From assembly GCA_910592345.1 (NCBI GenBank), contig CAJVPI010000374.1, positions 1 through 32,459 of the forward strand: a DNA stretch of 32,459 bases. Direction: 5' to 3'. Shown one piece after another: positions 22,789 to 27,635 of the stretch. The position numbers and the translations under genes were made by a program. The number at the start of each line of letters is the position of its first letter. Positions within the stretch are counted from its first letter, which is position 1. This DNA comes from Paraglomus brasilianum. Lineage: Eukaryota. Under the pieces are notes generated by a model that worked only from the letters and a program-made list of their open reading frames with translations, made no database searches and was not told the origin of the DNA.

Positions 22789-25700
22789 TTAAGAGTCAAA
22801 GAGGAATTTGATCCTAGAGCCCATTGCCAAAGCTGTTGTGACTGTATCTCCAAATAGATTATTATTATGCCAGAGATTCAAAGAAGTCAGAGAAGAATTT
22901 GATTCTAGAGCCTTTGCCAAAGCTGTTGCTCCTGTATCTCCAATTTGATTATTACAGAGATTCAAAGAAGTCAGGGAGGAATTTGATTCCAGAACTGTAT
23001 CTCCAATTTGATTAGACTGGAGATTCAAAGAAGTCAGAGAGGAATTTGATTCTAAAGCTGTTGCCAAAGCTGTTACTCCTGTATCTCCAATTTGATTATG
23101 CTGGAGGTTCAAAGAAGTTAGAGAAGAATTTGATTCTAGAGCCTTTGCCAAAGCTGTTGCTCCTGTATCTCCAATTTGATTGTGCTGGAGATTCAAAGAA
23201 GTCAGAGAAGAATTTGATTCTAGAGCCTTTGCCAAAGCTGTTGCCCCTGTTGCTCCAATTTCATTATCATAGAGATCCAAAGAAGTCAGAGAAGAATTTG
23301 ATTCTAGAGCCTTTGCCAAAGCTGTTGCTCCTGTATCTCCAATTTGATTGTGCTGGAGACCCAAAAAAGTCAGGGAGAAATTTGATACTAGAGCCTTTGC
23401 CAAAGCTGTTGCTTCTGTATCTCCAATTTGATTAGCCTGGAGAATCAAAGAAGTCAGAGAGGAATTTGATTCCAGAGCTGTTGCCAAAGCTGTTGCTCCT
23501 GTATCTCCAGCTTGATTATTACAGAGATTCAAAAAAGTCAGGGAAGAATTTGATTCTAGAGCCTTTGCCAAAGCTGTTGCTCCTGTAGTTCTAATTTGAT
23601 TATTACAGAGATTCAAAAAAGTCAAGGAGGAATTTGACTCTAGAGCCTTTGCCAAAGCTGTTGCTCCTGTATCTCCAATTTGATTGTGTTGGAGATTCAA
23701 AGAAGTCAGAGAGGAATTTGATTCTAGAGCTTTTGCCAGAGCTGTTGCTCCTGTATCTCCAATTTGATTATGCCAGAGATTCAAAAAAGTCAGAGAAGAA
23801 TTTGATTCTAAAGCCTTTGCCAGAGCTGTTGCTCCTGTATCTCCAATTTGGTTATACCAGAGATTCAAAGAAGTCAGAGAAGAATTTGATTCTAGAGCCT
23901 TTGCCAGAGCCGTTGCTCCTGTATCTCCAATTTGATTATGCCAGAGATTCAAAGAAGTCAGAGAAAAGTTTGATTCTAGAGCCTTTGCCAGAGCTGTTGC
24001 TCCTGTAGTTCTAATTTGATTATTACAAAGATTCAACAAAGTCAGGGAGGAATTTGACTCTAGAGCCTTTGCCAAAGCTGTTGCTCCTGTATCTCCAATT
24101 TTATTATCTTGAAGATTCAAAGAAGTTAGAGAAGAATTTGATTCTAGAGCCTTTGCCAGAGCTGTTGCTCCTGTATCTCCAATTTGATTATACCAGAGAT
24201 TCAAAGAAGTCAGAGAAGAATTTGATTCTAGAGCCTTTGCCAAAGCTGTTGCTCCTGTATCTCCAGTTTGATTATTACAGAGATTCAAAGAAGTCAGAAA
24301 GGAATTTGATTCTAGAGCCTTTGCCAGAGCTGTTGCTCCTGTAGCTCCAATTTTATTATACTGGAGATTCAAAGAAGTCAGAGAGGAATTTGATTCTAGA
24401 GCCTTTGCCAAAGCTGTTGCTCCTGTACTTCTAATTTGATTAATACAGAGATTCAAAGAAGTCAGGGAGGAATTTGATTCTAGAGCCTTTGCCAAAGCTG
24501 TTGCTCCTGTAGCTCCAATTTTATTATACTGGAGATTCAAAGAAGTCAGAGATAAATTTAATTTTAAAATTTTTGCTAAAATTATGGCTCCAGCATTTCT
24601 AATTTGATGTCCTCTAAAATCTAATAGTAAACATTGATTTTGATAACTTTGTGCTTCCAATTGATCAAACAAAGATGATAATTGCTTGTAAAGAGTTTCA
24701 TTCAATTTGATTTTCAAGAACATGTTAACATCATCTAATGCTTTGCTGTATTGACAAAGATCAAGATAGACAGCTGCTCTTATGCCTAATATATTTACAT
24801 TATTTTCTGGCTGAATTTCTAATAATTTGTTGAAATCACTTAATGCATTATCATACTGTTTGAGTGCATAATAGATCTTTCCTCTTACTCTTAATGCCAA
24901 TTTATGATCTGGTTCAGCATTTAAAATTTTATTCAAGTAACTCAATGTATTGCCATATTGATTAACATCACATCTGATAATTTGCTGTTCCATTAAGATA
25001 AACATATTGCTTAGATCCATTCCAAATGATTCATCAAGATCATTCAATGCATAGTCATATTGCTCAAGCATGAGATAAACATGCCCTCTTAGATGTTGTG
25101 CTATTGTATCAGTTGGTTTAATGCACAATAATTTATTGAAGTCTTCTAATGCATCTGCATATTGACAAAATTTAAAATAGACAGCTCCTCTTGCAATCAG
25201 TGTGTTTGTATTATTTGGTTCAATCTCTAATAGTTGGTTGAAATCATTCAATGCCATCTCATACTGGTTAAGAATGTAGTAGACATTTCCTCTGACTTCT
25301 AATGCAAGGGCATTACTCACATCAATCTTCAATGATTGCTTAAGATCTTTAAGAGCCTGTCTGTACTCTGATTGTTGCATATAATATTTTCCACGCCAAG
25401 CCCATGCCCTGGCATTGTTGGGATTATTTTTTATGGCTTGGGTTATGTAATCATAACATTTTTGATGGTTTAAAATTTCCATATATGCAATGGCAAGGTC
25501 AGTTTGGATAGTTGCACTGTTGGGATAATGAATAAGTGCTCTTTCAAGCCATAATATTGCATTATTATATCTTTTTTTATCAAGAGCTTTCTTGCCTTGT
25601 TTGTATGCAGGATGTAGACTTCTTGGTCTCCCCATTCTTTGTAGGATAGTTTTCTTTGGTTTCATTTTAAGCAAATATAAAAACTTTGATTTTATAATAG

Positions 25701-27635
25701 AAGATTCCTCAATATCATCATCATCATCATCTTGACTTGCCACAATAGTTGTAAAATTTTTTGTTTTATTTTTTGGTGTGAGATTAATATGTCCAGCTCT
25801 GACAAATTTTTCATACAATGCTTTGTAAATTGGTGAACTTGGTATTTTCTCAGTATCTTCCAATTGAAATTTTCTTCTACAGTAAAAGCAATTCAGTTCA
25901 TGGCAGTTTATCCTCATAAATGTTTCTAATGCCAAATAGCTAATTTTGTGTTTGCATGGAAGTATTCTAAAATCATCTGTAATTTCTTGTGTAAATTGAC
26001 ATGTAAGATGATCAGCAACCATGTCTAAAATTAATGAATCATTTGGATTTGAATTAAGAAGTTCTTCAGACAGCTGATCATGTTTACTTGCTTTCTGTTT
26101 TGGGACTGACATTTCAACATTTGCTTTTCCACTGGCTTGATTAATATGAGTATATTTTTCATCAATGTATCCTCTCATGTCTTGAACCCTTTTCTCATCT
26201 TGGTTCAAAGTTTCAGCATGTTGATCCAGATCAACTGTCACAACAGAAAATGTGGTTGAATCTTTTTTATACAGTGTCATTAGAACTTCCATTGCTTTAA
26301 ATTGAATAAATTCCATCTTCACTATGTCCAGAGATAGTTTTGCAAGATAGTAACAATGGGCCAAAGTATTAGTATTTCTTGTAGATATTGTCAGACTTTG
26401 GGCAATATCCAGTATACCAAACAATAATGAGTATGGAACTGATTCTGAGATATGATCTGACAAGTTTTTTAATTTAGATTTGTATCCATTTATTTCTGAT
26501 TTTGCTGAAACTGCTTTACTCCACTCTTGGTCTCCAAATCTCCATAAATCTTTAATAATCATCAACTCCCCTTTAGCAACAGAATTTCTATGAATTGGAA
26601 CAGCTGACCATTCAACAAATGCTTGGTGAATTGTATATAAATATCTCCATTCCTTGTACCAATGTCCCACAGAAAACTTAGATTGTAAAGCCTTCTGAAC
26701 ATTATCATATATTTCAATAGTGGCTTTGTTATCAATTGGAGTTTCTACAGTTGTCATAATACCAGTCATGCCAGGTAAGGCCTCAGCTAGTGCAGCAAAA
26801 AAAGCCCTTAATTGGTTTATAATTTCAAGCCAAGCAGTTTTATCATCATCCAACACATGAAGAGTATTATAAAGACACATGAGTAAAAAATCATTGTTAT
26901 AATTTTGCACTTTAACACTTTCCTCCTCCAAAGTAGCAAATAAAACCCTTGGCCTTTGTAAGTCTTTTTCTATGACTTTGGTATAACATTGATGGAAGTC
27001 ATACAATTTTGTAAGGTTTTCATGCAAAGTTTCAAGTAACTCCTTCTCCATCTTAACAAGTCGCTTGCCATATGCTTCTAAAGCTAATACATATGCTCTC
27101 AGATGCAATTCCAATTCAATATCAGTGGTCATCTTATGGTCATTATATGTGACATTAATTCCAATTGTTTTCAAAACAATTCTCAATTGATTATCATCTA
27201 ATCTATTACCAAATAATAACAACAGATTGGATAATTTAATAAGATGACTGATTCTGTCATTACTGTTGACAATTGATTCCAAAGTTGTAGATAGTTGCTC
27301 ATTTAATTCAACCTTGCTCAGATGTGCTGTAAACATTTGTCCATAGTCATCACCATAATTACTATCACTGTCACTTTCAAAGACAATAAGGTCTCTCTCA
27401 ATCACATCTTCAGTCTCTGCATTATCAAGCAACTTCCCCTTTCCTTTGTTTTTAATACCTGAAGATGATTGCTGTCCAATCTCCTAGTAATAGTAATATT
27501 GATATTAGAGTGAGTTGTATTTTTATTGTGAGTATTGTAAGAATTGTTAATTTATTCCAATGCGGAAAATTATCTTAAAGTTTGAATGTATACAAAACTC
27601 ACCCAGCTGTCTGCTGATGAATATTCACGATCCAT
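22789..27635 (-). CDS. RING/U-box-like + TPR + 28-aa LRR (RI/NLRC3-type) multidomain protein (exons 27635-27603, 27483-22789; ~1575 aa)
   Basis: The 4.7-kb open frame joins an 11-codon first exon (MDREYSSADSW) via a GTGAGT...TAG phase-0 intron. It contains LTCQFT...LPCKHKIS...CFYCRRKF (~26007-25865), TPR units such as ALEVRGNVYYILNQYEMALNDFNQLLEIEPNN (~25608-24710), and 21 near-identical LRRs. Confidence 0.9.
22792..24555 (-). repeat. Tandem 84-nt coding repeat array, 21 LRR units
   Basis: The consensus is SSLTSLNLxxNQIGDTGATALAKALESN. Unit 19 lacks 7 aa, and unit 21 is frameshifted near its end. Confidence 0.95.

What the first reader, a model, noticed from the sequence alone, without database searches (positions are those of the whole stretch)
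22789..27635. Unusual architecture: unknown N-domain + RING/U-box-like + TPR + LRR, with no NTPase
Seen: a degenerate RING with only some Zn ligands kept (CQFT...CKH...CFYC), about 8-9 TPRs and an NLRC3/RI-type LRR array are all in one 4.7-kb exon. I see no Walker A (GxxxxGK[ST]). The gene sits between the housekeeping genes RPC19 and PTH4. Inference: a sensor-coupled E3 ligase or NLR-analogous receptor/effector assembled by domain shuffling, possibly for bacterial-endosymbiont, competitor or host recognition.
Basis: partly seen in the sequence, partly recalled or inferred. Interest (0 to 1): 0.7.

Follow-up and report, generated by a model that had tools for sequence, protein, structure and literature searches.

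The report
Mycorrhizal-fungus RING protein with hypervariable LRRs
This gene, likely from an arbuscular mycorrhizal fungus, joins a predicted helical domain, a RING finger that keeps only one predicted zinc site, nine TPR repeats and about twenty near-identical leucine-rich repeats that differ mostly at their predicted binding face; it has no nucleotide-binding motif and likely works as a ubiquitin ligase that would tag whatever its variable repeats bind.

Summary
Window 22789-27483 (-) is one open 1564-codon exon behind a predicted 11-codon first exon. It encodes an all-helical HEAT/ARM-like domain, a RING, nine TPRs and about 21 ribonuclease-inhibitor-type LRRs, with no Walker A. The RING fold is supported by profile and structure searches. 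It keeps the second zinc site and has lost the first, like the active one-zinc RING of Gid2/RMND5. The helical-RING-TPR core is a multi-copy family of Glomeromycotina, not a single-copy housekeeping gene. The LRR tail is a lineage-specific addition: 0 of 105 core relatives carry it. The TPR-LRR junction is real and recurs in paralogs and soil fragments. LRR units are 88% identical in DNA; the scaffold is conserved (omega 0.27) and the binding face varies (omega 1.8, not significantly above 1). The gene lies in a sharp CpG desert, suggesting past methylation. It is not an NLR. Best reading: a single-chain RING E3 with a shuffled recognition tail. Ligase activity, expression and target are untested, and a silenced, relaxed gene-family copy remains a serious rival.

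The parts
27603..27635 (-). Predicted first exon, 11 codons from ATG
   Evidence: Sequence; joins exon 2 in frame; no RNA support
27484..27602 (-). Predicted 119-nt GT..AG intron
22789..27483 (-). Second exon, 1564 open codons plus stop (P0001)
26110..27315 (-). All-helical HEAT/ARM-like N-domain (about residues 57-458), no Pfam family, shared with Glomeromycotina helical-RING-TPR proteins
25798..26043 (-). One-zinc-type RING with flanking helices (residues 481-562): C495 kept, site C510-H512-C532-C535 kept, other ligands of the first site lost, Arg536 after the last Cys
24691..25608 (-). Nine TPR units (residues 626-931), diverged from each other (mean 24% identity)
24550..24690 (-). Linker and degenerate first LRR; the TPR-LRR junction found in paralogs and soil fragments
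22792..24549 (-). Array of 21 RI-type LRR units (84-nt period, mean 88% DNA identity among 19 full units), variable mainly at positions 3, 5, 7, 8, 10 and 13
21788..27562 (.). CpG desert over the gene body and 1 kb of 3' flank (3 CG against 164 expected)
21160..21799 (+). Left neighbour: RNA polymerase RPB11/RPC19-family gene with introns, tail to tail with the finding
28650..29388 (+). Right neighbour: GGQ-bearing RF-1-domain gene (PTH4/ICT1-like), head to head with the finding, starts 1 kb apart

Best explanation
This is an LRR-extended member of a multi-copy Glomeromycotina family of helical-RING-TPR proteins, and it likely works as an intracellular single-chain RING ubiquitin ligase whose variable LRR face would bind a target that the predicted one-zinc RING would then ubiquitinate through an E2. 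Shown: the domain order, the family, the absence of an NTPase motif, the reality of the TPR-LRR junction, near-identical LRR units with a conserved scaffold and a variable exposed face, and a CpG desert. Predicted: the RING fold, the single zinc site and the helical N-domain. Inferred: E2 recruitment, the N-domain as a rigid scaffold holding the RING, target choice by TPR and LRR, renewal of specificity by recombination among the LRR units, and insertion of the gene as a once-methylated duplicate between two housekeeping genes. The class of target is open; foreign proteins (endobacterial, viral or plant) are plausible but have no direct support.
For: RING: the profile of 31 relatives hits RNF8 (E 1.9e-6), TRIM RINGs, RMND5A (0.0028) and MMS21 (0.024). 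The model (pLDDT 81.8) aligns to RING/U-box structures. In 37 aligned rows, C3 is kept in 37, and C1, H4, C7 and C8 in 36 each; the last Cys is followed by Arg in 26, including this protein. A one-zinc RING can be an active E3: Gid2/RMND5 (PMC9180843, passages). Family: 93 hits at E<=0.001. Of 26 core relatives looked up, 15 carry a species name and all 15 are Glomeromycotina. Tails vary: TPR only, a Ras domain, other domains. Junction: an identical contig and variants with 39-53 differences bridge it in runs X1 and X2. L001 (84%), P0103 (81%) and P0104 (90%) carry TPR plus LRR. LRR: scaffold omega 0.27, below 1 at p 7e-6; exposed positions omega 1.81; positions 7-8 differ among relatives. An open frame would be expected to hold 12-17 stops at 7% neutral divergence. 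No 19-residue window exceeds hydropathy 1.46, which fits an intracellular protein.
Against: No activity was measured. Two prolines common in the family RING are replaced here: after C1 (Pro in 29 of 37, Gln here) and after C7 (Pro in 25 of 37, Phe here); from recall these loops contact the E2. Exposed-site omega is not significantly above 1 (p 0.22); I chose the positions after seeing the units, and recombining units break the tree model. TPR/linker dN/dS against L001 is only 0.61 (154 codons), and L001 has a stop in its LRR array. Of 28 isolated soil differences, 12 are silent, which is not clearly beyond neutral once transitions are weighted (p 0.01-0.08). The CpG desert points to transposon-like methylation. 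No relative spans N-domain to LRR, so the four-part architecture is shown in full only for this gene.
Confidence: 0.5

Rival explanations
1. A methylated, weakly constrained copy from an expanding gene family. An abundant LRR module was joined to a helical-RING-TPR gene by recombination, and the product has little or no current role.
For: CpG o/e is about 0.02 over the gene against 0.73-1.09 in neighbours and flanks. L001 is equally depleted (1 CG against 36 expected) and has a stop. TPR/linker dN/dS is 0.61. In R. irregularis, 18% of genes are highly methylated like transposons, mostly orphans (PMC8647823, passages). LRR-unit contigs far outweigh junction contigs.
Against: The 1564-codon frame is intact where 12-17 stops would be expected, unless the copy is recent. 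The LRR scaffold is under purifying selection (omega 0.27). Zinc ligands are kept across the family. The first exon and promoter keep their CpGs. The junction recurs in several paralogs and soils.
Confidence: 0.25
2. The RING here is not an independent ubiquitin ligase. It is a structural or heterodimer RING, or an SP-RING-like SUMO ligase, and the protein is a repeat-rich adaptor.
For: Loss of the first zinc site is also seen in SP-RINGs (recall). There are weak hits to MMS21 (E 0.024; Z 7.2-7.8) and to zf-Nse in 3 of 31 members. The two loop prolines are replaced in this protein. Gid2 works as a heterodimer with Gid9 (PMC9180843, passages).
Against: The best profile and structure matches are ubiquitin-ligase RINGs and U-boxes, though rows within 1 Z unit are tied. 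The Arg after the last Cys is kept.
Confidence: 0.15
3. An NLR-like death or signalling receptor without an NTPase. The LRRs sense non-self and the helical N-domain is the effector, with the RING only a regulator.
For: The order N-domain ... C-terminal repeats, with near-identical repeats varying at the exposed face, matches what is described for fungal NLR sensor domains (PMC10197012, section 13).
Against: There is no NACHT or NB-ARC: no Walker A, and no strand of 3 or more residues before the RING in the model. The N-domain aligns only loosely to generic HEAT/ARM solenoids (best Z 12.0, rmsd 7.9, 162 aligned, a designed repeat). No transmembrane-like helix.
Confidence: 0.08
4. An assembly chimera joining a TPR gene to an unrelated LRR array.
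For: The LRR array is a long tandem repeat present in many contigs. No listed contig piece spans the whole gene. The exact number of units may be misassembled.
Against: A 347-nt contig with 0 differences bridges the junction (X1 record 5). Diverged versions bridge it in X1 and X2. Independent records L001, P0103, P0104 and P0106 hold the same junction or linker.
Confidence: 0.02

Closest known systems
Glomeromycotina helical-RING-TPR proteins (e.g. Rhizophagus irregularis GLOIN_2v1882096, Glomus cerebriforme C1645_8633; annotated hypothetical or TPR-like)
   Same: Homologous N-domain, the same one-zinc RING pattern and TPRs in the same order; multi-copy.
   Different: 0 of 105 relatives carry this LRR. 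The window's clade sits on a long branch with only unnamed environmental members, one of which (P0005) ends after its TPRs.
Gid2/RMND5 one-zinc RING (GID/CTLH E3)
   Same: RING with a single zinc (PMC9180843, passages); profile hit E 0.0028; structural match to Gid2 Z 7.1, rmsd 3.8, 76 aligned.
   Different: No LisH/CTLH Pfam hit. Gid2 is a conserved subunit of a multi-protein ligase; this protein carries its own repeats and is multi-copy.
CHIP/STUB1 (TPR-helical-U-box E3)
   Same: TPRs and a RING/U-box fold in one chain; structural match Z 8.4, rmsd 3.2, 86 aligned.
   Different: CHIP has three N-terminal TPRs, a zinc-free C-terminal U-box and no LRR (recall). Here the RING precedes nine TPRs and keeps zinc ligands.
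Fungal NLRs with highly conserved WD40/TPR/ANK sensor repeats; animal RI-type LRR NLRs (NOD2, NLRC3, NLRP3)
   Same: C-terminal array of near-identical repeats varying at the exposed face. The LRR type matches ribonuclease inhibitor and NLRP LRRs.
   Different: No NACHT or NB-ARC. Fungal NLRs use ANK, WD40 or TPR rather than LRR (PMC9119436 passages; PMC10197012 section 13).
Yeast Dia2 (TPR-F-box-LRR substrate receptor of SCF) and LRSAM1 (LRR-RING E3)
   Same: Repeat domains including LRRs coupled to ubiquitination. Both architectures are recalled; they appeared only as search listings.
   Different: No F-box hit. Different domain order. Those are conserved low-copy genes (recall), whereas this one belongs to a fast-changing multi-copy family.

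Membership tests
NLR (STAND) receptors | Central NACHT or NB-ARC NTPase with Walker A | tested here: not met
   0 Walker A matches; no such family among the Pfam rows shown; N-domain model has only helices as listed elements
NLR (STAND) receptors | C-terminal repeat array with high internal conservation | tested here: met
   19 full LRR units, mean 88% DNA and 84% protein identity
NLR (STAND) receptors | Positive selection on exposed repeat positions | tested here: inconclusive
   omega 1.81, p 0.22 against 1; rest 0.27
RING/U-box E3 ligases | RING/U-box fold | tested here: met
   Profile hit RNF8 E 1.9e-6; predicted model matches RING/U-box structures; Atlas features 0.92 to C3HC4 clusters
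Canonical two-zinc RING (C3HC4/C3H2C3) | Eight zinc ligands | tested here: not met
   C2 position is Thr/Ser in 31 of 37, C5 position Ser in 34 of 37, C6 position Ala/Asn in 30 of 37
One-zinc RINGs (Gid2/RMND5 type, SP-RING type) | Second zinc site (C-x-H ... C-x2-C) kept, first lost | tested here: met
   by sequence only, zinc binding not measured
RING/U-box E3 ligases | E2-binding hydrophobic residues and linchpin Arg | tested here: inconclusive
   Hydrophobic residue two after C1 and Arg after C8 kept; two loop prolines replaced; roles of these positions partly recalled
RING/U-box E3 ligases | Ubiquitin transfer activity | not testable with these tools
   Needs an in vitro assay
SP-RING SUMO ligases (Nse2/Mms21, Siz/PIAS) | zf-Nse/zf-MIZ match above cut-off | tested here: inconclusive
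   Best E 0.005 in 3 of 31 members, none for this protein
Gid2/RMND5 (GID/CTLH subunit) | LisH-CTLH-CRA region before the RING | tested here: not met
   No such Pfam hit at E<=10 in residues 1-460
CHIP/STUB1 | N-terminal TPRs followed by a C-terminal zinc-free U-box | tested here: not met
   Order is RING then TPR, with zinc ligands conserved
CHIP/STUB1 | Hsp70/Hsp90 EEVD-binding clamp in the TPRs | not tested
   Not examined
Dia2-type TPR-F-box-LRR | F-box between TPR and LRR | tested here: not met
   No Pfam hit at E<=10 for the 48-residue TPR-LRR linker
Glomeromycotina helical-RING-TPR family (no published name found) | Homologous N-domain, one-zinc RING and TPRs in this order | tested here: met
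Pfam ARM_5 (PF23948) N-domain of Mortierella NACHT-WD40 proteins (recalled lead) | Match to the ARM_5 profile | tested here: inconclusive
   No hit for this protein; not among the 25 families shown for alignments A1 and A2; no profile-profile test possible

The most novel reading that the evidence does not exclude
Arbuscular mycorrhizal fungi have an undescribed class of intracellular non-self receptors that skip the NLR NTPase. A conserved helical-RING-TPR ligase core is fitted with interchangeable tails. In this lineage the tail is an RI-type LRR array whose near-identical units are reshuffled to renew the binding face, so that foreign proteins (endobacterial, viral or plant) are ubiquitinated directly. 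This would be LRR-based immune recognition in a kingdom reported to lack LRR receptors.
Probability: 0.2. Interest if true: 0.8.

Novelty: new variant of a known kind. Interest (0 to 1): 0.5.

Why it matters
Fungi are reported to have few LRR proteins and almost no LRR receptors, in a survey whose listed fungal groups do not name Glomeromycotina (PMC2939053, abstract and section 5). Fungal NLRs use other repeats (PMC9119436, passages). A RING ligase with a variable LRR face in a fungus that likely hosts endobacteria and lives in roots gives a concrete, testable candidate for how such fungi recognise and remove foreign proteins. Even on the modest reading, it defines a roughly 400-residue helical domain and a one-zinc RING shared by many unannotated Glomeromycotina proteins. 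If the gene proves silent, it is still a clear case of a methylation-scarred gene-family copy sitting between housekeeping genes.

Tried and rejected
No genome is held, so there was no synteny test or paralog count. No RNA holder was listed; this says nothing about expression. Homodimer prediction of residues 30-520 of the N-domain-plus-RING model gave no answer (score 0.00, fold uncertain). Foldseek on the N-domain-plus-RING model gave no match at E<=0.001, and VIA-align gave only generic helical solenoids. Atlas features for the N-domain stayed under 0.9. Pfam and NCBIfam gave nothing for the N-domain. The recalled likeness to Pfam ARM_5 was not borne out but is not excluded. Exact-word scans with the N-domain found no relative in prokaryote genomes or viral contigs; these reach close relatives only. 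The 'longer' search with alignment A1 returned 8 proteins, all with TPR families and none with LRR or NACHT; this is weak evidence. Five look-ups of earlier findings returned nothing. Ten literature searches listed no paper on this family or architecture; I saw listings only, except for the eight papers named in the full report, and read no supplements. The 3' flank fragments gave no Pfam hit below E 0.1.
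Full report
Gene and domains. The minus strand holds one open frame of 1564 codons at 22789-27483. An ATG at 27635 opens an 11-codon exon joined in frame by a 119-nt GT..AG intron, giving a predicted 1575-residue protein; no RNA confirms this. Numbers below refer to the 1564-residue frame (P0001). Pfam finds TPRs and LRR_6 (E 1.7e-100). By hand there are nine TPRs at 626-931 and 21 LRR units from 979, preceded by a degenerate unit at 952. There is no Walker A and no transmembrane-like stretch. The neighbours are an RPB11/RPC19-family gene and a GGQ-bearing RF-1 gene, both with short introns, so the window is eukaryotic.

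The RING. Pfam misses it in this protein. A profile of 31 sequences (this one and 30 relatives) hits RNF8 at E 1.9e-6, then TRIM RINGs, RMND5A and MMS21. An AlphaFold2 model of the 94-residue segment (pLDDT 81.8) aligns best to TRIM69 RING (Z 9.2, rmsd 2.0, 71 residues), TRIM21, CHIP and other RING/U-box domains. Foldseek ranks the same kinds first, though none reaches E 0.001. In 37 aligned rows C3 is invariant and C1, H4, C7 and C8 are kept in 36 each, while the C2, C5 and C6 positions are mostly Thr/Ser, Ser and Ala/Asn. One zinc site is therefore predicted intact and the other lost. Gid2/RMND5 shows that a one-zinc RING can be an active ligase (PMC9180843, passages). The Arg after the last Cys is kept here and in 26 of 37 rows. 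Against activity, two prolines common in the family are replaced in this protein; their role at the E2 interface is recalled, not tested.

The N-domain. A model of residues 45-568 built on 62 sequences is confident (pLDDT 84.3, pTM 0.87) and lists only helices before the RING, which leaves no room for a hidden P-loop fold. Structure searches give only generic HEAT/ARM-like solenoids. It has no Pfam or NCBIfam family.

The family. A search with N-domain plus RING found 93 proteins at E<=0.001. Of 26 looked up, 15 bear species names, all Glomeromycotina: Rhizophagus, Funneliformis, Acaulospora, Racocetra, Ambispora, Scutellospora, Dentiscutata, Gigaspora. The source organism is therefore likely an arbuscular mycorrhizal fungus or close relative; this rests on homology alone. 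One R. irregularis strain has three loci and another has two, so this is not a single-copy gene. Tails differ: most have TPRs, one has a Ras domain (possibly a gene-model fusion), and others have unrelated extensions. With a profile of the window's own LRR, 0 of 105 core relatives score; 25 of them extend 400 residues or more past the RING, and many others are fragments. In a tree of 36 selected rows the window groups at 100/100 with six unnamed environmental proteins, including P0005, which ends after its TPRs. Five rows fill under half the columns. The LRR was thus likely added within this clade.

Is the fusion real? In run X1 a 347-nt contig with no differences bridges the last TPRs and the first LRR. 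Three further X1 contigs (50-53 differences) and three X2 contigs (39-47 differences) also bridge it. X1 and X2 are one sample and may be the window's source, so they show paralogs, not independent organisms. Independent of them, metagenome contig L001 matches the junction at 84%, and proteins P0103 (81%) and P0104 (90%), which share one run, and P0106 (71%, linker and LRR only) carry it too. Four soil or rhizosphere runs cover all 30 bins of 24400-27700 with short, varied contigs. None of these records spans N-domain to LRR. Summed depth at the LRR unit is more than 100 times that of the linker. About 20-fold comes from the gene's own units and depth is not copy number, but many more arrays of this LRR type likely exist elsewhere in the organism.

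The LRR array. The 19 full units are all distinct in DNA yet 88% identical on average. Identity does not fall with distance (units 4 and 19 differ by one base), as expected under recombination among units. Variation is highest at positions 7 and 8 of the strand motif, then 13, 3, 10 and 5. Relatives show other residues at 7-8. A codon model on 25 units (19 from the window, 6 from L001; one L001 unit with a stop was dropped) gave omega 0.27 for the scaffold (p 7e-6 against 1) and 1.81 for positions 3, 5, 7, 8 and 10 (p 0.22 against 1); positions 7-8 alone gave 0.72. This is a conserved scaffold with a free face, not proof of positive selection. The pattern resembles the concerted evolution described for fungal NLR sensor repeats (PMC10197012, section 13).

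Context. From 21788 to 27562 there are 3 CG dinucleotides where 164 are expected, while both neighbours and the promoter region are near normal. The desert begins at the end of the left neighbour and ends inside the gene's own intron. I infer past CpG methylation and deamination. In R. irregularis a fifth of genes are methylated like transposons, mostly orphans (PMC8647823, passages). This fits a duplicated family copy inserted between housekeeping genes, but synteny could not be checked. It also keeps a silenced copy in play: dN/dS for TPR and linker against L001 is 0.61 and L001 has a stop. In favour of function, an unconstrained frame at 7% divergence would be expected to carry 12-17 stops, an argument that fails if the copy is recent.

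Mechanism and verdict. The best reading (0.5) is a single-chain RING ligase: a helical scaffold holds the RING, and TPRs and a reshuffled LRR face select targets. Rivals are a relaxed, methylated family copy (0.25), a non-ubiquitin or inactive RING adaptor (0.15), an NTPase-free death receptor (0.08) and a chimera (0.02). It is not an NLR, CHIP, Gid2 or Dia2 by the features tested. It is a new variant of repeat-bearing RING proteins within a family for which ten literature searches found no description.

Papers seen. PMC10197012: passages and section 13. PMC2939053: abstract and section 5. PMC9180843, PMC9119436, PMC8647823, PMC10507103 (LRR genes shared between Glomeromycotina and their Mollicutes-related endobacteria), PMC12258605 and PMC13443276 (nothing on this family): passages only. 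No supplements were read; domain tables in genome-paper supplements could already list this architecture. The architectures of CHIP, Dia2, LRSAM1, SP-RING and ARM_5 are recalled.

Noticed in passing
window 10854-13826: A second CpG desert (4 CG against 87 expected) holds an intron-rich minus-strand region with fragments reading GIPQG, CIDD and GFPNYG, which resemble telomerase-type reverse transcriptase motifs (recall), and ORF 11108-11986. Pfam and PDB searches did not confirm it.
   Followed up: partly
P0044 (Ambispora gerdemannii): The same N-domain and RING followed by a Ras-family GTPase domain instead of TPRs; a real fusion or a gene-model join.
   Followed up: no
P0060 and P0010: P0060 has the core followed by an F-box-like stretch and a long helical region; P0010 begins with what looks like the end of a kinase domain. 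Both are read by eye and suggest more shuffling around this core.
   Followed up: no
P0005 (same clade as the window): LRR-free relative whose last TPR units are much more alike (mean 55%) than the window's (24%); the conserved-repeat sensor may have moved from TPR to LRR when the LRR was added.
   Followed up: partly
window 16366-17823 (-) and 19726-20523 (+): Long acidic, low-complexity ORFs with no Pfam hit above cut-off; the first holds a degenerate 12-nt tandem repeat.
   Followed up: no
window 27702-27757: Two exact copies of a 17-nt sequence, 39 nt apart, just upstream of the gene's ATG in the 1-kb region shared with the RF-1 gene.
   Followed up: no
L001:839-841: In-frame stop in the fifth LRR unit of the metagenome relative and a frameshift-like end: a decayed copy or an assembly error.
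   Followed up: partly
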